Part shown: positions 447-10,734 of the stretch, piece after piece
How the letters are laid out: every line of letters starts with the position of its first letter
Position numbering within the stretch: position 1 is the stretch's first letter
Source: a virus
Direction: 5' to 3' (one strand)
Virus genome (UHGV): UHGV-0021747
DNA length: 30,815 nt
Made by a program: the position numbers and the translations under genes
Notes under the pieces: generated by a model
What the model saw: only the letters and a program-made list of their open reading frames with translations
What the model was told of the DNA's origin: nothing
Databases searched by the model: none

Positions 447-478
447 TTTTTTTGCAAATCACAAAGTCCATTTAATGA

Positions 479-502
479 GCCTCGCGATGCGGGGCTTTTT
501 TA
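479..502 (+). terminator. Rho-independent terminator candidate downstream of Rz
   Basis: GC-rich hairpin gcctcgc-gat-gcggggc (7-bp stem with one G-U) followed by tttttt. Confidence 0.5.
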
Positions 503-1315: not shown

Positions 1316-1410
1316 CGGATAGAATAAAACAGTGGCTAGGGTAGCTCCCGAAAAGCGGAATCGTCACCGCCAGCCACTGAATCTATGACGAACAACTAGA
1401 CGAGGTTGAT

Positions 1411-1894: not shown

Positions 1895-1904
1895 ACAACT
1901 AACA

Positions 1905-1927
1905 GGTCGCTCAGGCGGCCTTTTTTA
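1905..1927 (+). terminator. Rho-independent terminator candidate
   Basis: Hairpin ggtcgc-tcag-gcggcc (6-bp stem, one G-U) followed by ttttttatt. Confidence 0.4.
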
Positions 1928-2474: not shown

Positions 2475-2903
2475 ATGAATATGGCGACTGAACCAAAAGC
2501 TGGTCGCCCCTCTGATTATATGCCGGAGGTGGCTGACGATATCTGCTCGTTGCTTTCTTCTGGCGAAAGTTTGCTGAAAGTATGTAAGCGTCCTGGTATG
2601 CCGGATAAGTCCACTGTTTTCCGCTGGTTGGCAAAGCATGAGGATTTTCGCGACAAGTACGCGAAGGCAACTGAGGCACGAGCTGATTCTATTTTCGAAG
2701 AGATATTCGAAATTGCTGACAATGCGATTCCAGATGCTGCCGAGGTGGCAAAGGCAAGACTTCGCGTTGATACCCGCAAATGGGCGCTGGCCAGAATGAA
2801 TCCCCGTAAGTATGGCGACAAGGTAACTAATGAGCTTGTCGGCAAAGACGGTGGCGCAATCCAGATTGAAACATCACCGATGAGCACTCTATTCGGAAAA
2901 TGA
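2475..2903 (+). CDS. terS: Terminase small subunit (Terminase_2-like)
   Basis: N-terminal motif KAGRPSDYMPEVADDICSLL...GMPDKSTVFRWLAKHEDFRDKYA is typical of this small-terminase family. The stop overlaps the terL start as ATGA. Confidence 0.8.
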   Translation: MNMATEPKAGRPSDYMPEVADDICSLLSSGESLLKVCKRPGMPDKSTVFRWLAKHEDFRDKYAKATEARADSIFEEIFEIADNAIPDAAEVAKARLRVDTRKWALARMNPRKYGDKVTNELVGKDGGAIQIETSPMSTLFGK

Positions 2904-4312
2904 CCTTGATTAATCCTATCTTTGAACCGTTTATTGAGGCGCATCGCTACAAAGTCGCCAAAGGCGGTCGAGGTAGCGGTAAATCATGGGCAATTGCGAG
3001 GCTGCTTGTTGAAGCGGCGCGTCGGCAGCCTGTGCGTATTCTCTGCGCTCGTGAACTGCAAAACAGTATCAGCGATTCGGTAATCCGGTTGCTTGAAGAC
3101 ACCATAGAGCGGGAAGGGTATTCGGCTGAGTTTGAAATTCAGCGTTCAATGATTCGTCATCTCGGAACGAATGCTGAATTCATGTTCTACGGCATAAAAA
3201 ACAACCCGACGAAGATTAAATCGCTCGAAGGCATTGATATCTGCTGGGTGGAAGAAGCGGAAGCGGTAACGAAGGAATCATGGGATATCCTGATACCAAC
3301 CATCCGTAAGCCGTTCTCTGAAATATGGGTGAGCTTTAACCCGAAAAACATCCTCGACGATACCTATCAGCGATTCGTCGTAAATCCTCCCGATGATATT
3401 TGCCTGCTGACGGTGAACTACACCGACAACCCGCACTTTCCTGAAGTCCTCCGTCTGGAGATGGAAGAGTGTAAACGCAGAAACCCGACACTGTATCGTC
3501 ACATCTGGCTTGGTGAGCCAGTAAGCGCAAGTGATATGGCAATCATCAAACGTGAATGGCTTGAAGCCGCAACCGATGCGCACAAGAAACTCGGATGGAA
3601 AGCGAAAGGCGCTGTTGTTTCTGCACATGACCCGTCAGATACAGGGCCGGATGCTAAAGGTTATGCATCGCGTCACGGTTCGGTAGTTAAGCGCATTGCC
3701 GAAGGTCTGCTGATGGACATCAACGAGGGGGCTGACTGGGCTACTTCGCTGGCGATTGAAGACGGTGCTGACCACTACTTGTGGGATGGTGATGGTGTCG
3801 GTGCAGGGCTACGCAGACAGACGACGGAAGCGTTCTCCGGTAAGAAAATCACCGCCACGATGTTCAAGGGCAGCGAATCGCCATTTGATGAAGATGCACC
3901 ATATCAGGCTGGAGCATGGGCTGATGAAGTCGTGCAGGGCGACAACGTTCGCACTATTGGCGATGTGTTCCGCAATAAGCGAGCGCAATTCTATTACGCG
4001 CTGGCTGACAGGCTGTATCTGACATATCGGGCGGTTGTTCACGGTGAGTATGCAGACCCCGACGACATGCTGAGTTTCGACAAAGAAGCGATAGGCGAGA
4101 AGATGCTGGAGAAGCTGTTTGCAGAACTGACGCAGATTCAGCGCAAATTCAATAACAACGGGAAGCTTGAGCTAATGACTAAGGTCGAAATGAAGCAGAA
4201 GCTCGGTATTCCATCTCCTAACCTGGCTGATGCGCTGATGATGTGTATGCATTGCCCGGCATTGGTCCGCGAAGAAACAGAAATATACGTTCCCTCATCC
4301 TCCGGTTGGTAA
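2900..4312 (+). CDS. terL: Terminase large subunit (PBSX/Sf6-type, headful packaging)
   Basis: Walker A KGGRGSGKS near the N-terminus, 470 aa, and a strong resemblance to the Sf6 gp2-type large terminase as recalled. Confidence 0.95.
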   Translation: MTLINPIFEPFIEAHRYKVAKGGRGSGKSWAIARLLVEAARRQPVRILCARELQNSISDSVIRLLEDTIEREGYSAEFEIQRSMIRHLGTNAEFMFYGIKNNPTKIKSLEGIDICWVEEAEAVTKESWDILIPTIRKPFSEIWVSFNPKNILDDTYQRFVVNPPDDICLLTVNYTDNPHFPEVLRLEMEECKRRNPTLYRHIWLGEPVSASDMAIIKREWLEAATDAHKKLGWKAKGAVVSAHDPSDTGPDAKGYASRHGSVVKRIAEGLLMDINEGADWATSLAIEDGADHYLWDGDGVGAGLRRQTTEAFSGKKITATMFKGSESPFDEDAPYQAGAWADEVVQGDNVRTIGDVFRNKRAQFYYALADRLYLTYRAVVHGEYADPDDMLSFDKEAIGEKMLEKLFAELTQIQRKFNNNGKLELMTKVEMKQKLGIPSPNLADALMMCMHCPALVREETEIYVPSSSGW

Positions 4313-4314
4313 AC

Positions 4315-6441
4315 ATGGCAGAGACATTAGAGAAAAAACATGAGCGGATCATGCTCAGGTTTGACCGCGCCTATTCTCCACAGCAGGAAGTGCGCGAAAA
4401 GTGCATTGAAGCTACGAGGTTTGCTCGTGTCCCCGGAGGTCAATGGGAAGGAGCAACGGCGGCTGGAACTAAGCTTGATGAGCAGTTCGAGAAGTATCCT
4501 AAGTTTGAAATCAATAAGGTAGCAACTGAACTTAACCGCATCATTGCAGAATACCGCAATAACAGAATCACCGTTAAGTTTCGTCCTGGTGACAGAGAGG
4601 CAAGCGAAGAGTTAGCCAATAAATTAAATGGTCTGTTCCGTGCTGACTACGAAGAAACTGATGGCGGTGAGGCTTGCGATAATGCATTTGACGACGCTGC
4701 TACTGGTGGTTTCGGTTGCTTCCGTTTGACGTCGATGCTGGTCAATGAATACGACCCCATGGACGATCGTCAGCGTATTGCTATTGAACCAATATACGAC
4801 CCGTCGCGCTCTGTGTGGTTTGACCCTGACGCTAAGAAGTACGACAAATCTGACGCGTTGTGGGCGTTCTGCATGTATTCGTTGTCACCTGAAAAATATG
4901 AGGCTGAATACGGAAAGAAACCTCCTGCTTCTCTGGACGTAACGTCTATGACCAGTTGGGAATATGACTGGTTTGATGCAGATGTTATTTACATAGCGAA
5001 GTATTACGAAGTTCGTAAAGAGTCTGTTGATGTTATCAGTTATCGACATCCAATCACTGGAGAGATTGCAACATACGACAGTGATCAGGTTGAAGATATT
5101 GAAGATGAACTGGCAATAGCTGGATTTCAGGAAGTGGCAAGGCGCTCAGTGAAGCGCCGTCGTGTGTATGTATCCGTAGTGGATGGTGATGGTTTCCTTG
5201 AGAAACCTCGACGTATTCCTGGTGAGCATATCCCCCTCATCCCGGTTTATGGAAAACGCTGGTTCATTGATGATATTGAGCGTGTCGAAGGGCACATTGC
5301 AAAAGCAATGGATCCACAGCGTTTGTACAACCTTCAGGTTTCAATGCTGGCTGATACTGCAGCGCAAGACCCCGGTCAGATCCCTATAGTTGGCATGGAG
5401 CAAATTCGTGGACTTGAGAAGCACTGGGAGGCTCGCAACAAGAAACGCCCAGCGTTCTTGCCGTTGCGCGAAGTGAGAGATAAATCTGGCAACATTATCG
5501 CTGGAGCTACCCCGGCAGGATATACACAGCCTGCGGTTATGAATCAGGCATTGGCTGCATTACTACAGCAAACCAGTGCTGATATTCAGGAGGTTACAGG
5601 CGGCAGTCAGGCCATGCAGCAGATGCCAAGTAATATTGCTCAGGAAACGGTTAACAACTTGATGAACAGAGCAGATATGGCTTCGTTTATCTATCTGGAC
5701 AATATGGCGAAAAGTCTTAAACGCGCTGGTGAAGTATGGCTGTCAATGGCGCGTGAAGTGTACGGTTCAGAACGTGAAGTGCGCATCGTTAACGAAGATG
5801 GAAGTGATGATATCGCTGTCCTGAGCGCACAGGTTGTTGACAGGCAAACAGGGGCTGTTGTTGCGTTAAATGACCTTTCTGTCGGTCGATACGATGTGAC
5901 GGTTGATGTTGGACCAAGCTACACAGCACGACGTGATGCAACGGTTTCTGTACTGACAAATGTCCTTAGCTCTATGCTTCCAACAGACCCAATGCGCCCG
6001 GCAATTCAGGGTATTATTCTGGACAATATCGATGGCGAAGGCCTTGATGACTTCAAAGAGTACAACCGAAACCAACTGCTGATATCTGGTATTGCAAAAC
6101 CACGCAATGAGAAAGAGCAGCAGATTGTTCAACAGGCGCAAATGGCAGCACAAAGCCAGCCAAATCCTGAAATGGTTCTCGCTCAGGCGCAAATGGTAGC
6201 AGCGCAGGCAGAAGCGCAAAAAGCAACTAACGAAACTGCTCAAACTCAAATCAAAGCATTTACTGCCCAGCAGGATGCGATGGAGAGTCAGGCAAACACT
6301 GTCTATAAACTGGCTCAAGCCAGAAACATCGATGACAAAGCAGTGATGGAGGCAATACGCCTTCTGAAAGATGTCGCCGAGTCACAACAACAGCAATTCC
6401 AGTCACCACCACAGTCACCGGCAGACTTAATGCCGAGTTAA
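4315..6441 (+). CDS. Portal protein (P22 gp1-like)
   Basis: Multiple blocks match the P22 portal as recalled (EFYEV..., KRRRVY..., AGEHIP..PV.G, NxRADxxxFxxDNxA, GRYxxxxDVGPS). Start chosen at ATG 4315 (MAETLEKK) just after the terL stop, not the upstream 4243. Confidence 0.9.
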   Translation: MAETLEKKHERIMLRFDRAYSPQQEVREKCIEATRFARVPGGQWEGATAAGTKLDEQFEKYPKFEINKVATELNRIIAEYRNNRITVKFRPGDREASEELANKLNGLFRADYEETDGGEACDNAFDDAATGGFGCFRLTSMLVNEYDPMDDRQRIAIEPIYDPSRSVWFDPDAKKYDKSDALWAFCMYSLSPEKYEAEYGKKPPASLDVTSMTSWEYDWFDADVIYIAKYYEVRKESVDVISYRHPITGEIATYDSDQVEDIEDELAIAGFQEVARRSVKRRRVYVSVVDGDGFLEKPRRIPGEHIPLIPVYGKRWFIDDIERVEGHIAKAMDPQRLYNLQVSMLADTAAQDPGQIPIVGMEQIRGLEKHWEARNKKRPAFLPLREVRDKSGNIIAGATPAGYTQPAVMNQALAALLQQTSADIQEVTGGSQAMQQMPSNIAQETVNNLMNRADMASFIYLDNMAKSLKRAGEVWLSMAREVYGSEREVRIVNEDGSDDIAVLSAQVVDRQTGAVVALNDLSVGRYDVTVDVGPSYTARRDATVSVLTNVLSSMLPTDPMRPAIQGIILDNIDGEGLDDFKEYNRNQLLISGIAKPRNEKEQQIVQQAQMAAQSQPNPEMVLAQAQMVAAQAEAQKATNETAQTQIKAFTAQQDAMESQANTVYKLAQARNIDDKAVMEAIRLLKDVAESQQQQFQSPPQSPADLMPS

Positions 6442-6454
6442 CCAGGAGTAATCA

Positions 6455-7339
6455 ATGGAAAACGAACTGATCATCGACGGTCAGGTTATTGACCTGTCTG
6501 AAACACAGGAAAATGCAGAAGAAACCATCATCCAAACAGAGTCACAGCCTGAGAATGAAAGCCAGGATGACAACGGTAAAGAGGTGGCAACTGAGCCTGA
6601 AAAAACAGAAGAGACACCAGAAGATTACGCCTTGCGTATTGGTGATGAAGAAATTCAGCTTAACGCTGACGATGATGATCACATTGACGGGCAACCTGCA
6701 CCGCAATGGGTGAAAGATCTTCGCAAAGGCTTCAAAGAAACACAGAAAGAAAACCGTGAGTTGCGCCGCCAGCTTGAGGAAGCATTAGCCAAGCCTGCGG
6801 AACATCAGCAACCACAACAAGACGCTATTCCACCAAAACCGACTCTTGAGTCGTGTGATTATGACGAACAGGCGTTTGAACAGGCATTGACTGATTGGCA
6901 TGAGAAAAAAGGCCGTGTCGAACAGCAGCAGCAACAAAAACTACGTCAGCAACAGGAATACCAACAGCGTTTCCAGCAAAGGGTAGAAGCGCATAAACAA
7001 CGGGCAGCCAAACTTCCTGTGAAAGATTATCAGGAAATGGAGGCCATTGTTCTTAGTGAGCTACCACCAATTCAGCAGGAAATCATCATTCACTGTGCAG
7101 ACGAAGGCTCTGAACTACTCGCCTATGGCTTAGGTAAGAGCCAGCAATTACGCCAGCGTGTAGCCGCTGAGACAGATCCAATTCGCGCAGCATTCCTCTT
7201 GGGGCAGATTAGCAAACAGGTAAGCCTTGCTCCAAAACCAAAGAAAGCCATCAAGCCAGAGCCGGAAGTACGTGGTGGCGGTGCTGATGCGAAACAAGAC
7301 GAATTCAACAAATTATGCCCCGGCGCAAAAATCGAATAA
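6455..7339 (+). CDS. Scaffolding protein (P22 gp8-like)
   Basis: Acidic, Gln-rich 294-aa protein between portal and coat; the C-terminal region resembles the P22 scaffold coat-binding helix-turn-helix. Confidence 0.75.
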   Translation: MENELIIDGQVIDLSETQENAEETIIQTESQPENESQDDNGKEVATEPEKTEETPEDYALRIGDEEIQLNADDDDHIDGQPAPQWVKDLRKGFKETQKENRELRRQLEEALAKPAEHQQPQQDAIPPKPTLESCDYDEQAFEQALTDWHEKKGRVEQQQQQKLRQQQEYQQRFQQRVEAHKQRAAKLPVKDYQEMEAIVLSELPPIQQEIIIHCADEGSELLAYGLGKSQQLRQRVAAETDPIRAAFLLGQISKQVSLAPKPKKAIKPEPEVRGGGADAKQDEFNKLCPGAKIE

Positions 7340-7350
7340 GGAAAAGATAA

Positions 7351-8622
7351 ATGCCTAACAATCTCGACAGTAACGTCAGTCAAATCGTTCTGAAAAAATT
7401 CCTTCCTGGTTTTATGTCAGATTTAGTTCTGGCGAAAACCGTAGACCGTCAGTTGCTGGCAGGTGAAATCAACTCCAGCACTGGCGATAGCGTTAGCTTT
7501 AAACGTCCGCATCAATTCTCATCCCTCCGTACTCCCACTGGTGATATTTCAGGGAAAAATAAAAACAACCTGATCTCAGGTAAAGCTACGGGGCGTGTAG
7601 GTAACTACATCACTGTTGCTGTTGAATATCAGCAACTGGAGGAAGCGATCAAGCTTAACCAACTGGAAGAAATTCTCGCGCCGGTTCGCCAGCGAATCGT
7701 TACCGACCTTGAAACAGAGCTTGCTCACTTCATGATGAATAACGGTGCGTTGTCACTTGGTAGCCCCAATACTCCAATCACCAAATGGTCTGATGTTGCG
7801 CAGACGGCATCTTTCCTGAAAGACCTCGGCGTTAATGAAGGTGAAAACTATGCTGTAATGGATCCATGGTCTGCACAGCGACTTGCTGATGCGCAGACTG
7901 GTTTGCACGCTTCAGATCAATTGGTTCGTACTGCATGGGAGAATGCGCAGATTCCAACCAATTTTGGCGGCATTCGCGCACTGATGTCTAATGGGCTTGC
8001 CTCTCGTACGCAGGGGGCATTTGGCGGAACACTGACAGTCAAAACACAGCCAACTGTTACCTATAACGCAGTTAAAGACTCATACCAGTTCACTGTAACA
8101 TTGACCGGAGCGACAGCCAGCGTTACAGGTTTTCTGAAAGCTGGTGATCAGGTTAAATTCACCAATACCTACTGGCTGCAACAGCAGACCAAACAGGCGT
8201 TGTATAACGGAGCCACACCAATTAGCTTCACTGCAACGGTTACTGCTGATGCTAATTCAGACAGCAGTGGCGATGTGACGGTTACACTTTCTGGTGTTCC
8301 GATTTATGACACTACAAACCCGCAGTACAACTCTGTAAGTCGTCAGGTAGCGGCAGGCGATGCCGTATCTGTAGTAGGCACTGCTAGCCAGACAATGAAG
8401 CCAAACCTGTTCTATAACAAGTTCTTCTGTGGACTTGGCTCTATCCCACTGCCGAAACTGCACAGTATTGATTCTGCTGTTGCAACATATGAAGGTTTCT
8501 CCATCCGCGTACATAAATACGCAGATGGCGATGCCAACGTGCAAAAAATGCGCTTTGACTTACTGCCTGCATATGTATGCTTTAACCCTCACATGGGCGG
8601 TCAGTTCTTCGGTAATCCGTAA
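7351..8622 (+). CDS. Major capsid (coat) protein
   Basis: 423-aa ORF in the coat position, followed by a strong terminator as in P22-like phages. Confidence 0.85.
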   Translation: MPNNLDSNVSQIVLKKFLPGFMSDLVLAKTVDRQLLAGEINSSTGDSVSFKRPHQFSSLRTPTGDISGKNKNNLISGKATGRVGNYITVAVEYQQLEEAIKLNQLEEILAPVRQRIVTDLETELAHFMMNNGALSLGSPNTPITKWSDVAQTASFLKDLGVNEGENYAVMDPWSAQRLADAQTGLHASDQLVRTAWENAQIPTNFGGIRALMSNGLASRTQGAFGGTLTVKTQPTVTYNAVKDSYQFTVTLTGATASVTGFLKAGDQVKFTNTYWLQQQTKQALYNGATPISFTATVTADANSDSSGDVTVTLSGVPIYDTTNPQYNSVSRQVAAGDAVSVVGTASQTMKPNLFYNKFFCGLGSIPLPKLHSIDSAVATYEGFSIRVHKYADGDANVQKMRFDLLPAYVCFNPHMGGQFFGNP

Positions 8623-8626
8623 TAAC

Positions 8627-8653
8627 AAGGGGCTTCCGCCCCTTTTATGTTTT
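8627..8653 (+). terminator. Rho-independent terminator after the coat gene
   Basis: Hairpin aaggggc-ttcc-gcccctt followed by ttatgtttt. Confidence 0.6.
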
Positions 8654-8664
8654 AAGGAAACAAT

Positions 8665-8850
8665 ATGGATCGCATGAGTGTATTCCTTGCCGCAGATAAC
8701 GAATCCGGACATGTACAGGCCGTTATCGCAGATAAAGACTTACTGTTTTTCGAAAAGTTGGGCTTTGTTGCCTCAGTTGATGAATTGAAACCGACCAGTA
8801 AGCGATGTCGTAAGGCGGCAGACAATGGCAACAGTACTGACAAAGGGTGA
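8665..8850 (+). CDS. Hypothetical small protein (61 aa), overlaps the gp4 start
   Basis: AAGGA Shine-Dalgarno 6 nt before the ATG; overlaps gp4 by 26 nt in another frame, so it is uncertain. Confidence 0.3.
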   Translation: MDRMSVFLAADNESGHVQAVIADKDLLFFEKLGFVASVDELKPTSKRCRKAADNGNSTDKG

Positions 8851-9307
8851 GATCGTCCTTTTTGCGCTTCGTAAGTTTGCTATTGCTTCTAATGCATCGC
8901 TGACTGATGTTGAGCCGCAATCAATTGAAGATGGTGTAAATGATCTGGAAGATATGATGTCCGAGTGGATGATTAACCCCGGCGACATTGGTTACGCTTT
9001 CGCAACTGGAGATGAGCAGCCATTACCAGATGATGAGTCAGGTCTTCCAAGAAAATACAAACACGCAGTAGGCTATCAGTTATTGCTGAGAATGCTATCT
9101 GATTACAGCCTTGAACCAACTCCGCAAGTTCTCAGTAACGCCCAACGCTCATATGATGCCTTGATGACCGACACTCTGGTTGTTCCTTCAATGCGACGAC
9201 GTGGAGATTTTCCTGTAGGACAGGGTAATAAATATGACGTGTTTACATCTGACCGATATTATCCAGGCGATCTCCCTCTGATTGATGGCGATATCCCAAA
9301 CGCATAG
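8825..9307 (+). CDS. Head completion / tail accessory factor (P22 gp4-like)
   Basis: N-terminus [42 protein letters not shown] aligns with P22 gp4 as recalled. Confidence 0.85.
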   Translation: [160 protein letters not shown]

Positions 9308-9315
9308 GTGAATAA

Positions 9316-10734
9316 ATGCCGATTCAGCAACTTCCGCTTATGAAAGGTGTCGGCAAAGACTTCCGAAACGCCGACTATATCGACTATCTGCCAGTGAATA
9401 TGTTGGCTACCCCCAAAGAAATACTCAACAGCAGCGGATATCTTCGCTCATTCCCGGGCATTGCCAAACGCTCTGATGTGAACGGTGTATCTCGCGGCGT
9501 AGAGTACAACATGGCGCAGAGTGCTGTTTATCGCGTGTGTGGTGGCAAGCTGTACAAAGGCGAAAGTGAAGTCGGTGATGTTGCCGGAAGTGGTCGCGTA
9601 TCAATGGCGCATGGTCGGACATCACAGGCGGTAGGCGTTAATGGTCAACTGGTCGAGTATCGCTATGATGGCACGGTTAAAACCGTCTCAAACTGGCCTA
9701 CTGACAGCGGATTCACACAGTACGAGTTAGGTTCAGTTCGCGACATTACGCGCTTACGTGGGCGTTATGCGTGGTCAAAAGACGGAACTGATTCATGGTT
9801 TATCACTGACCTAGAAGACGAATCGCATCCTGACCGATACAGCGCACAATATCGCGCAGAATCGCAGCCGGACGGCATCATCGGCATCGGCACATGGCGA
9901 GACTTCATCGTCTGCTTTGGTTCATCGACGATTGAATATTTCTCCCTGACTGGTGCAACCACCGTTGGTGCTTCTTTGTATGTTGCGCAACCATCGCTGA
10001 TGGTGCAGAAAGGCATTGCCGGAACTTACTGCAAAACGCCATTCGCTGATTCGTATGCGTTTATCAGCAATCCGGCAACGGGTGCGCCGTCTGTATACAT
10101 CATCGGATCAGGTCAGGTATCACCAATCGCCAGCGCGAGCATTGAGAAAATACTACGCTCCTACACTGCTGATGAACTGGCTGATGGCGTGATGGAGTCT
10201 CTGCGATTTGATGCGCATGAGCTGCTGATTATCCATCTTCCGCGCCATGTTCTCGTGTACGACGCATCTTCAAGCGCCAATGGTCCGCAATGGTGTGTGC
10301 TGAAAACGGGCCTGTATGACGATGTGTACCGCGCTATCGACTTCATTTACGAAGGCAATCAGATAACGTGCGGCGATAAGCTGGAGTCCGTGACCGGGAA
10401 ATTGCAATTCGATATCAGCAGCCAGTACGACAAGCAACAGGAACACCTGCTGTTTACTCCGTTGTTCAAAGCGGATAACGCCAGAGTGTTCGACCTTGAG
10501 GTTGAATCGTCAACTGGCGTTGCGCAGTACGCCGACCGCCTGTTCCTCTCTGCAACCACTGACGGAATAAATTACGGACGTGAGCAGATGATTGAGCAGA
10601 ATGAACCGTTCGTTTACGACAAACGCGTTTTGTGGAAGCGAGTCGGGCGCATCAGGAAAAATGTCGGCTTCAAATTGCGCGTTATCACGAAGTCACCTGT
10701 CACTCTGTCTGGCGCTCAGATAAGGATTGAGTAA
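9316..10734 (+). CDS. Tail accessory factor (P22 gp10-like)
   Basis: 472 aa, and reads as near-identical over long stretches to P22 gp10 as I recall it ([11 protein letters not shown]..., [20 protein letters not shown]...). Confidence 0.9.

What the first reader, a model, noticed from the sequence alone, without database searches (positions are those of the whole stretch)
8623..8850. Strong terminator after the coat gene followed by a small ORF overlapping gp4
The hairpin at 8627..8653 would attenuate late transcription after the highly expressed scaffold and coat genes. A 61-aa ORF with a plausible Shine-Dalgarno starts just after it and overlaps the gp4 start by 26 nt. It may be a genuine small gene or simply an untranslated spacer.
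Basis: seen in the sequence. Interest (0 to 1): 0.2.

Follow-up and report, generated by a model that had tools for sequence, protein, structure and literature searches.

The report
Known coat-gene terminator and small gene
The hairpin after the coat gene and the 61-codon reading frame behind it are both real and conserved, but both are already annotated in the near-identical phages Sf6 and HK620, so the finding is ordinary except that the small frame proves to be a genuine protein-coding gene whose function is still unknown.

Summary
The window is the late (virion assembly) region of an Sf6/HK620-like P22-type phage. Every detail of the observation checks out:
- the coat gene ends at 8622;
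- a 7-bp GC-rich hairpin lies at 8627-8644, with a T-rich tail to 8653;
- a Shine-Dalgarno AAGGAA lies at 8654-8659;
- a 61-aa ORF runs 8665-8850 and overlaps the gp4 adaptor gene (8825-9307) by 26 nt.

GenBank already carries the same features at the same offsets: 't coat' plus gene 6 in Sf6, and 'tGP5' plus hkbT in HK620. P22 has a stem-loop plus orf69 in the same place.

- All 218 related loci keep an intact 59-63 aa frame.
- It is the only frame open in 64 of 64 distinct sequences.
- dN/dS is about 0.08-0.2 while synonymous sites are near saturation.
- Homologues with the same coat-hairpin-small gene-gp4 order reach APSE and Vibrio phages.

The hairpin keeps its pairing through compensatory changes. 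'Strong' and 'attenuates' remain untested, because late transcription in these phages is Q-antiterminated.

The protein (PHROG 3251) has a confident beta-beta-alpha N-domain and a disordered charged tail. It has no structural or functional relative.

Verdict: already known, low interest.

The parts
7351..8622 (+). Coat (major capsid) protein gene, 423 aa. Its stop codon lies 4 nt before the hairpin; a second in-frame TAA is at 8623-8625.
   Evidence: Pfam P22_CoatProtein E 3.7e-142. About 99% identical to Sf6 gene 5 and HK620 gene 5.
8627..8644 (+). GC-rich stem-loop: AAGGGGC / TTCC / GCCCCTT, 7 bp with 5 G-C pairs, -11.6 kcal/mol. It corresponds to Sf6 't coat' and HK620 'tGP5'.
   Evidence: Annotated as a terminator at the identical offset in Sf6 and HK620. 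Conserved in all 47 distinct intergenic sequences and in P22, Sf101, Louie, Skarpretter, Vibrio 234P9 and metagenomic relatives. 93% of cells are paired, 2 pairs show compensatory change, and 0 of 500 shuffles reach the observed score.
8645..8653 (+). T-rich tail TTATGTTTT. With the two stem T's it reads UUUUAUGUUUU. It contains a trivial mini-ORF ATG TTT TAA at 8647-8655.
   Evidence: A T-run follows the stem in every lineage, usually TTTCTTTTT or TTTTTTATTT.
8654..8659 (+). Shine-Dalgarno AAGGAA of the small gene, 5 nt before the ATG.
   Evidence: A GAGG, GGAG or AAGGA element at the same distance is present in all lineages.
8665..8850 (+). Small protein-coding gene of 61 aa, equivalent to Sf6 gene 6, HK620 hkbT and PHROG 3251. 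The N-domain (residues 1 to about 42) has strands 3-9 and 16-22 and a helix 23-32. The tail (about 43-61) is disordered and charged.
   Evidence: PHROG 3251, E 8.5e-40, full length. Intact in 218 of 218 loci. dN/dS 0.06-0.25. The only open frame, with pN/pS 0.14. Homologues in Enterobacterales, APSE and Vibrio phages. AF2 pLDDT 87-92 for residues 1-40.
8812..8815 (+). AAGG, the likely Shine-Dalgarno of gp4. It lies inside the small gene, 9 nt before the gp4 ATG.
   Evidence: The same AAGG context is seen in Sf6-like and Yokenella loci.
8825..8850 (+). 26-nt overlap between the 3' end of the small gene and the 5' end of gp4. It is a candidate translational-coupling junction.
   Evidence: Overlaps of 26, 23 or 20 nt were identified in 69 of 80 distinct sequences, 17 nt in P22 and 11 nt in L224. 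Synonymous divergence is depressed here, pS 0.23 against 0.6.
8825..9307 (+). gp4 head-tail adaptor (Ad3, 'packaged DNA stabilization protein'), 160 aa.
   Evidence: Pfam P22_Tail-4 E 3.1e-74. 100% identical to Sf6 gp7.

Best explanation
This is the conserved junction between the procapsid module (portal, scaffold, coat) and the head-completion module (gp4, gp10, gp26) of a P22-like phage late operon. It has two parts.

(1) An intrinsic-terminator-type hairpin with a U-run sits 4 nt after the coat stop codon. It is the element already named 't coat' in Sf6 and 'tGP5' in HK620. I infer that it stops part of the transcription, certainly any that is not Q-modified. I also infer that it leaves a hairpin-capped 3' end that protects scaffold and coat mRNA. 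Either effect would favour upstream over downstream gene products.

(2) Read-through transcripts carry a genuine 61-aa protein-coding gene (Sf6 gene 6, HK620 hkbT, PHROG 3251). It has its own conserved Shine-Dalgarno. Its last 26 nt overlap the ribosome-binding site and start of gp4, so ribosomes finishing it run over the gp4 start (inferred translational coupling). The product is a small beta-beta-alpha domain with a disordered charged tail. It is most likely a non-structural accessory protein of head completion.

Shown: the anatomy, the conservation, the compensatory base changes, purifying selection on the protein, and conserved gene order. Inferred: termination or stabilisation in vivo, translational coupling, and any function of the protein.
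For: Identity:
- The 701-nt region is 98.3-99.3% identical to HF4s, Sf6 and HK620, whose records annotate a terminator and a small CDS at identical offsets.
- P22 has a stem_loop, orf69 and gene 4 in the same order.

Hairpin:
- It is present immediately after the coat stop in every lineage examined.
- The stems differ but still pair: GGGGC/GCCCC, GGGAGC/GCTCCC, GGGCGC/GTGCCC, and GCCCCTC/GAGGGGC in Vibrio.
- On the alignment 93% of cells are paired, 2 pairs show double changes, and 0 of 500 shuffles reach the observed score.

Gene:
- 218 of 218 loci, 80 distinct nucleotide sequences and 57 distinct proteins all keep 59-63 codons.
- dN/dS against the window is 0.06-0.25 at pS 0.34-0.73. The median over 1541 pairs is 0.076.
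- Only frame +0 is open in 64 of 64 sequences, with pN/pS 0.14. All five other frames carry stops (in 39 to 64 of the 64 sequences); four give 1.5-2.8 and the antisense frame -1 gives 0.26.
- An HMM search of 1.84 billion representatives finds 56 hits, mostly small proteins of 55-150 aa that share the N-domain.
- Distant members keep the order coat, hairpin, small gene, P22_Tail-4, Phage_stabilise.

Literature:
[quoted passage not shown] It offers partial termination, or stopping of non-antiterminated transcription, as possible roles (PMC8022706).
Against: - No expression data were available: no termination efficiency, no 3' ends, no peptide or ribosome footprints.
- The stem is modest and the U-tract interrupted. 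Q-modified polymerase is expected to read through such sites (established lambdoid biology; the Q gene, qut and tR' are annotated in Sf6).
- Portal and terminase, which are low-copy products, also lie upstream, so attenuation is not a full account of stoichiometry.
- Within the Sf6-like clade the small gene carries 16 non-synonymous and 6 synonymous variants, against 42 and 62 in coat (Fisher p = 0.009).
- The window copy differs from Sf6 by 4 non-synonymous and 0 synonymous changes.
- A few frameshifted or truncated alleles exist in bacterial genomes.
- The P22 positional counterpart is reported non-essential in the laboratory (PMC2629481 citing Eppler et al. 1991). Selection on the gene is therefore real but weak in the short term.
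- Conservation of the C-terminal 'KAADNG...' is confounded by the overlapping gp4 start region.
Confidence: 0.72

Rival explanations
1. The hairpin acts only as an insulator. It stops spurious or prophage-state transcription that has not been Q-modified, and it has essentially no effect on genuine late transcription. In that case there is no attenuation between coat and gp4 during lytic growth.
For: Late operons of lambdoid phages are read by terminator-resistant Q-modified polymerase; Sf6 carries a Q gene, qut and tR'. The phage L authors list this as one of two possible roles (PMC8022706). The window holds other terminator-like hairpins inside the same operon, at 477-497 and 1904-1921.
Against: The placement is precise and universal: exactly after the most abundantly needed product, in phages whose coat proteins are only 14-28% identical (PMC2629481). 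That placement suggests a role tied to coat expression. No data separate the two readings.
Confidence: 0.25
2. The 61-codon ORF is an untranslated spacer. Its apparent conservation reflects other constraints: the gp4 ribosome-binding region, RNA structure, or a gene on the opposite strand, as the APSE-1 record annotates.
For: The last 26 nt overlap gp4 and show depressed synonymous change. APSE-1 annotates P26 on the minus strand across this region. Pfam has no family for the protein.
Against: In the 53 non-overlapping codons pN/pS is 0.14. Synonymous sites are nearly saturated while the protein stays 70-77% identical. Every other frame, including both long antisense frames, carries stops in 39 to 64 of 64 sequences. 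The Shine-Dalgarno is conserved. Homologues at 47-54% identity exist in Vibrio and APSE phages in the same frame and position.
Confidence: 0.02
3. The small protein is a nucleic-acid-binding or gp4/portal-associated head-completion factor, possibly a minor or disordered virion component, rather than a dispensable accessory protein.
For: - Across distant relatives it is always found directly upstream of gp4, and in most of them it overlaps the gp4 start.
- The tails are charged and often basic. Several distant members carry canonical AT-hook cores, RGRP: P0112, P0113, P0119, P0134.
- The Vibrio homologue has a C-terminal extension that resembles an HeH/SAP motif by eye.
- The N-domain is predicted confidently.
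Against: - The window has KRCRK and its close relatives KRGRK, with no proline, so the AT-hook core is not met. Codon 48 varies freely: G, A, V, C, D.
- There is no Pfam hit for the Vibrio extension.
- No chain of any solved structure resembles the protein by sequence.
- The Sf6 tail-machine paper does not mention gp6.
- The P22 counterpart is non-essential.
Confidence: 0.15

Closest known systems
Shigella phage Sf6 't coat' terminator (6147-6173) and gene 6 (6185-6370), GenBank AF547987
   Same: 98.9% identical DNA over the 701-nt region around the finding. The terminator is a 27-nt feature at the same offset as 8627-8653. The 61-aa ORF has the same length and the same 26-nt overlap with the gp4 homologue, gene 7.
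   Different: One base differs in the loop (TTCC here, TTAC in Sf6). Four amino-acid differences lie in the small protein: E23D, F26L, Q27L, G48C. There are no synonymous differences.
Phage HK620 'tGP5' terminator and hkbT, GenBank AF335538
   Same: 98.3% identical DNA and identical layout. The product of hkbT is annotated 'unknown'.
   Different: The same four amino-acid differences as against Sf6.
Phage P22 stem_loop 6102-6119 and orf69, 6135-6344 (BK000583); PHROG 1175
   Same: The order is the same: coat stop, GGGGC-NNNN-GCCCC hairpin with a T-run, Shine-Dalgarno, small ORF overlapping gene 4 by 17 nt. The protein is of similar size with a basic C-terminal tail (KPRKGRKPKA). The record notes similar stem-loops in HK97 and lambda.
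   Different: BLASTP finds no similarity. The profile-profile comparison is only suggestive: probability 15-29%, E 6e-4 to 2e-3, over the segment 'VID..EL..Y.KDGWLDHPSKL' against 'VIA.KDF..FEKLGFV.SVD.L'. It belongs to a different PHROG, 1175 rather than 3251.
[quoted passage not shown]
   Same: The slot and the intra-operon terminator are the same. The authors say its role is unknown and suggest partial termination or blocking of non-antiterminated transcription. The role of the gene is unknown (PMC8022706 and PMC2629481).
   Different: The ORF is 186 aa and belongs to the orf69 lineage (PHROG 3769 and 1175), not to PHROG 3251.

Membership tests
Rho-independent (intrinsic) terminator | GC-rich stem-loop with a short loop | tested here: met
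   7 bp with 5 G-C pairs, a 4-nt loop, -11.6 kcal/mol.
Rho-independent (intrinsic) terminator | U-rich tract immediately 3' of the stem | tested here: met
   UUUUAUGUUUU counting the two stem U's; it is interrupted by A and G. Relatives have UUUCUUUUU or UUUUUUAUUU.
Rho-independent (intrinsic) terminator | Pairing maintained in evolution through compensatory change | tested here: met
   93% of cells are paired. Pairs 23/38 and 26/35 change on both sides. 0 of 500 shuffles reach the observed covariation score, and slid controls are lower. The Vibrio phage has a different stem sequence at the same place.
Rho-independent (intrinsic) terminator | Transcripts actually end at the U-tract, and with what efficiency | not testable with these tools
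   No transcript-end data were found. 'Strong' is therefore unsupported.
Sf6 gene 6 / HK620 hkbT family (PHROG 3251) | Full-length match to the family profile | tested here: met
   phrog_3251, E 8.5e-40, residues 1-61 on profile positions 1-61 of 61. 93% identical to Sf6 gp6 and HK620 HkbT.
Sf6 gene 6 / HK620 hkbT family (PHROG 3251) | Position between the P22-type coat gene and the gp4 adaptor gene | tested here: met
P22 orf69 family (PHROG 1175 / 3769) | Detectable sequence homology | tested here: inconclusive
   BLASTP finds nothing. hhalign gives probability 15%, rising to 29% with E 5.8e-4 for a deeper profile. The PHROGs differ.
AT-hook DNA-binding motif | Core R-G-R-P flanked by basic residues | tested here: not met
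   The window has KRCRK and close relatives KRGRK, without proline. Canonical RGRP occurs only in some distant members.
Ribosomal protein bL9 N-terminal domain-like fold | Significant structural or profile similarity | tested here: not met

The most novel reading that the evidence does not exclude
The small proteins encoded just after the coat-gene hairpin in P22-like phages may form one ancient superfamily. It would unite PHROG 3251 (Sf6 gene 6, hkbT) with PHROG 1175/3769 (P22 orf69, L orf186). Their beta-beta-alpha domain and basic tail, which is an AT-hook in some members, would bind nucleic acid or the gp4/portal complex. Their translation would be coupled to that of gp4. Together this would make them an overlooked accessory factor of head completion or DNA retention.
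Probability: 0.12. Interest if true: 0.45.

Novelty: already known. Interest (0 to 1): 0.14.

Why it matters
It matters little for discovery, because both features have been in GenBank records since 2001-2004. Three points are useful for annotation.
- The small frame should be called as a gene. It is missing from some records and was placed on the wrong strand in the original APSE-1 record.
- It is one of the most consistently placed unknown-function genes in the P22-like assembly cluster.
- The hairpin junction is a clean, testable case of an unsolved general question: what intrinsic terminators inside Q-antiterminated late operons actually do.

Tried and rejected
- Pfam: no family for the 61-aa protein, the Vibrio 115-aa homologue or P22 orf69.
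- Rfam: nothing at 8500-8900, even at E up to 1.
- PDB by sequence profile: only chance hits, E 0.12 or worse.
- Foldseek against PDB: no hit with E below 1.
- The bL9 idea was tested by hhalign and rejected, probability 0.1%.
- An AbrB/MazE-like reading was considered from weak VapB hits but not pursued, because the model lacks the third and fourth strands of that fold.
- P22 orf69 homology: BLASTP negative, hhalign suggestive only.
- Literature: nothing on hkbT. An 'ORF69' hit was an unrelated Stx-phage gene. No Sf6 gp6 in the tail-structure paper. The Sf6 genome paper and Casjens and Thuman-Commike 2011 are not held. The phage L proteomics supplement is not held. The BTP1 transcriptome paper has nothing on this terminator.
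- The Saprospiraceae locus L011 (34% identity) did not contain a convincing homologue and was dropped.

Full report
WHAT THE WINDOW IS

The region is the late operon of a P22-like (Lederbergvirus) phage of the Sf6/HK620 type. The genes, all on the + strand, are listed below.

| Coordinates | Gene |
|---|---|
| 54-446 | Rz |
| 2475-2903 | Sf6-type small terminase |
| 2900-4312 | large terminase |
| 4243-6441 | portal |
| 6455-7339 | scaffold |
| 7351-8622 | coat (P22_CoatProtein, E 3.7e-142) |
| 8665-8850 | the 61-aa ORF |
| 8825-9307 | gp4 adaptor (P22_Tail-4, E 3.1e-74) |
| 9316-10734 | gp10 (Phage_stabilise) |

Window 8400-9100 is 98.3-99.3% identical to phages HF4s, Sf6, N7 and HK620. The same element lies in 242 of 5426 complete E. 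coli genomes, where PGAP calls the small ORF 'hypothetical protein'.

THE OBSERVATION

- Coat ends with TAA TAA at 8620-8625.
- The stem AAGGGGC (8627-8633) pairs with GCCCCTT (8638-8644) around the loop TTCC.
- The tail TTATGTTTT runs to 8653.
- AAGGAA at 8654-8659 lies 5 nt before the ATG at 8665.
- The ORF ends with TGA at 8848-8850, 26 nt into gp4, whose ATG is at 8825.

The hairpin alone folds at -11.6 kcal/mol. The consensus scan ranks it among the four best + strand terminator-like sites in the first 20 kb.

Neither feature is beyond chance by itself. The scan found 29 such sites against 19.3 +/- 4.8 in shuffles, and short ORFs abound. The decisive evidence is comparative.

IT IS ALREADY ANNOTATED

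- The Sf6 record carries a 'regulatory: terminator ... t coat' at 6147-6173. That is the same 27 nt as window 8627-8653. It also carries 'gene 6 protein, similar to phage HK620 gene HKbT protein' at 6185-6370, overlapping gene 7, the gp4 homologue.
- HK620 carries 'tGP5' and hkbT ('unknown') at identical offsets.
- P22 has coat, a stem_loop, orf69 and gene 4, with a 17-nt overlap. The stem_loop is noted as 'similar in location to stem-loops in phage HK97 and phage lambda'.
- The small protein matches PHROG 3251 ('unknown function') end to end, E 8.5e-40.

IS THE SMALL ORF A GENE? YES

I collected 218 loci carrying a relative. They came from phage records, IMG/VR and GTDB genomes.

- All 218 keep an intact frame of 59, 61 or 63 codons. 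This holds across 80 distinct nucleotide sequences and 57 distinct proteins.
- Against the window, Nei-Gojobori dN/dS falls to 0.06-0.25 once synonymous divergence reaches 0.34-0.73. The median over 1541 informative pairs is 0.076.
- As a frame control over the 53 non-overlapping codons, only the annotated frame is open in 64 of 64 sequences, with pN/pS 0.14. The two other sense frames have stops in all 64 sequences, with pN/pS 1.5-2.1. The three antisense frames have stops in 39 to 64 of 64. This rules out the minus-strand 'P26' that the APSE-1 record annotates here.
- Constraint is strongest on the N-domain (0.19) and weaker on the tail (0.44). In the gp4 overlap the synonymous rate itself collapses, 0.23 against 0.6. 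The conserved C-terminal '...KAADNGN..DKG' therefore partly reflects the gp4 start region.
- A Shine-Dalgarno (GAGG, GGAG or AAGGA) is kept at the right distance in every lineage.

HOW FAR THE FAMILY REACHES

- Word-seeded search finds 69 clusters, in Escherichia, Salmonella, Serratia, Klebsiella, Citrobacter, Symbiopectobacterium, Yokenella and Vibrio.
- tblastn finds APSE phages of Hamiltonella (54% identity) and Vibrio phages (47%).
- A profile search of 1.84 billion representatives finds 56 hits at E up to 1e-3. Most are small proteins of 55-150 aa.
- These share the N-terminal roughly 42 residues, 'M.R.SVF..A.N..G.VQAVI.....F..LGFV.SVD'. After that come length-variable charged tails. Some are coiled-coil-like. 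Some carry canonical AT-hook cores, RGRP, as in P0112, P0113, P0119 and P0134.
- Three distant members were traced to contigs. Each lies between a P22-type coat gene and P22_Tail-4 plus Phage_stabilise genes.

THE HAIRPIN IS CONSERVED TOO

All 47 distinct coat-to-small-gene intergenic sequences fold into a GC-rich hairpin followed by a T-run, directly after the coat stop. The stems differ yet still pair.

| Lineage | Stem-loop |
|---|---|
| most lineages | GGGGC-TTCG-GCCCC |
| MS2 LVA clade | GGGAGC-TTCG-GCTCCC |
| APSE | GGGCGC-TTTA-GTGCCC |
| Vibrio phage 234P9 | GCCCCTC-...-GAGGGGC |
| P22 | GGGGC-TGCG-GCCCC |

On a 33-sequence alignment 93% of cells pair and two pairs carry changes on both sides. 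None of 500 column shuffles reaches the observed covariation score, and all slid controls are lower.

The same hairpin precedes orf69-type small ORFs in Sf101, Louie and Skarpretter. This element therefore marks the procapsid/head-completion boundary throughout P22-like phages. That holds even where coat proteins are only 14-28% identical (PMC2629481). Rfam has no family for it.

WHAT THE HAIRPIN PROBABLY DOES

Its anatomy is that of an intrinsic terminator. 'Strong' is not justified, because the stem is modest and the U-tract is interrupted.

Late operons of these phages start at one promoter and are read by Q-antiterminated polymerase. Sf6 has the Q gene, qut and tR'. That polymerase is expected to ignore such sites. 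This is established knowledge of lambdoid phages, not something tested here.

[quoted passage not shown] It says such intra-operon terminators' 'roles are not known'. It offers two possibilities: partial termination to lower downstream mRNA, or stopping transcription that started without antitermination (PMC8022706).

My preferred reading has three elements, all inferred:
- partial termination;
- the hairpin-capped 3' end stabilises scaffold and coat mRNA;
- both effects favour the products needed in hundreds of copies.

The insulator-only reading is a serious rival. No transcript data were found.

WHAT THE SMALL PROTEIN IS

AlphaFold2 with a 45-sequence alignment gives pLDDT 87-92 for residues 1-40. 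The model has strands at 3-9 and 16-22 and a helix at 23-32. The tail from about residue 43 is disordered. A shallower alignment gave the same topology at lower confidence.

Nothing informative matches it.
- Foldseek against PDB gives E above 1.
- The bL9 idea fails a profile comparison.
- No solved chain resembles the protein by sequence. The Sf6 tail-machine paper does not mention gp6. It is thus not a modelled virion component.

The P22 counterpart is reported as non-essential in the laboratory (PMC2629481 citing Eppler et al. 1991).

Whether PHROG 3251 and the orf69 family are homologous is unresolved.
- BLASTP is negative.
- hhalign gives probability 15-29%, with E down to 5.8e-4.
- The match covers 'VI...DF..FEKLGFV.SVD.L' against 'VID..EL..YVKDGWLDHPSKL'. 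Bridging forms such as 'GFVDHIDKV' occur in distant members.

The overlap with gp4 is conserved in kind: 26, 23 or 20 nt here, 17 nt in P22 and 11 nt in L224. Translational coupling is therefore plausible but untested.

CAVEATS ON CONSTRAINT

Over short times the gene looks loosely held.
- Among 62 Sf6-like haplotypes it has 16 non-synonymous and 6 synonymous variants, against 42 and 62 in coat (Fisher p = 0.009) and 19 and 18 in gp4.
- The variants cluster at codons 22-28 and at codon 48, which alone shows G, A, V, C and D.
- The window copy differs from Sf6 by four non-synonymous and no synonymous changes (E23D, F26L, Q27L, G48C). Its gp4 is identical to that of Sf6.
- None of the 242 E. coli genomes exceeds 98.5% identity over 8560-8900.
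- A few frameshifted or truncated alleles occur in bacterial genomes.

This pattern fits a non-essential accessory gene carried mostly by prophages. It does not undo the long-term signal.

VERDICT

The feature is already known, as Sf6 't coat' plus gene 6 and HK620 tGP5 plus hkbT.

This work adds four things:
- proof that the ORF is under purifying selection;
- the wide reach and fixed gene order of its family;
- a confident fold for the N-domain;
- compensatory evidence for the hairpin.

Function of both parts remains to be shown by experiment. Interest is low.

Noticed in passing
window 8806-8808 (codon 48 of the small gene) and 8728-8748 (codons 22-28): Among otherwise near-identical Sf6-like alleles, codon 48 (GGT, Gly) has four different non-synonymous variants: TGT, GCT, GTT, GAT. 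The window carries Cys. Codons 22-28 hold most of the other non-synonymous variants, and the rare frameshifted alleles break there too, next to the A5 and T5 runs. This could be relaxed or diversifying selection, or a mutational hotspot.
   Followed up: partly
L004 (APSE-1, AF157835) about 2501-2692 on the + strand, against annotated P26 at 2456-2785 on the - strand: The original APSE-1 record annotates an ORF on the opposite strand across this region. The conserved homologue of the small gene (MERKSVFAWSDNAAGYVQAVI...) is on the + strand, between the major head protein and P27 (gp4).
   Followed up: yes
L227 (Escherichia phage Louie, PQ850616) 927-1111: The 183-nt 'intergenic' stretch after the major head gene holds the conserved hairpin and an unannotated orf69-type ORF (MTHMIFRHGNMKKWKGVGYDFEIVKAEELQEYLDAGWFAHPDDLL...). 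The annotated Ad3 start, with an SQSQSQ run, and the small CDS overlapping the head gene both look doubtful.
   Followed up: partly
L005 (Vibrio phage 234P9) 2489-2836: The Vibrio homologue is 115 aa. After the shared N-domain it has an extension, '...LKAEAKALGLKGYGNSSAENLRKKIE...', that resembles an HeH/SAP-type DNA-binding motif by eye. Pfam gives no hit.
   Followed up: partly
window 1329-1391 (+): Rfam match to the int-alpA RNA motif (RF02996), 42 bits against a gathering score of 35.8. It lies between the Rha-like gene (649-1191) and the small terminase gene.
   Followed up: no
window 477-497 and 1904-1921 (+): Two further good terminator-like hairpins with T-runs lie inside the same late operon, after Rz and before the small terminase gene. 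[quoted passage not shown]
   Followed up: no
window about 9411-10578 (gp10): This is a mosaic boundary. From 6900 to 9410 the window differs from Sf6 at only 14 positions, and gp4 is identical. From 9411 onward there are 86 differences within gp10.
   Followed up: no
window 8647-8655: A three-codon mini-ORF, ATG TTT TAA, sits in the terminator's T-tract. It is in frame with the small gene and overlaps its Shine-Dalgarno. It is specific to the Sf6-like clade and probably meaningless.
   Followed up: no
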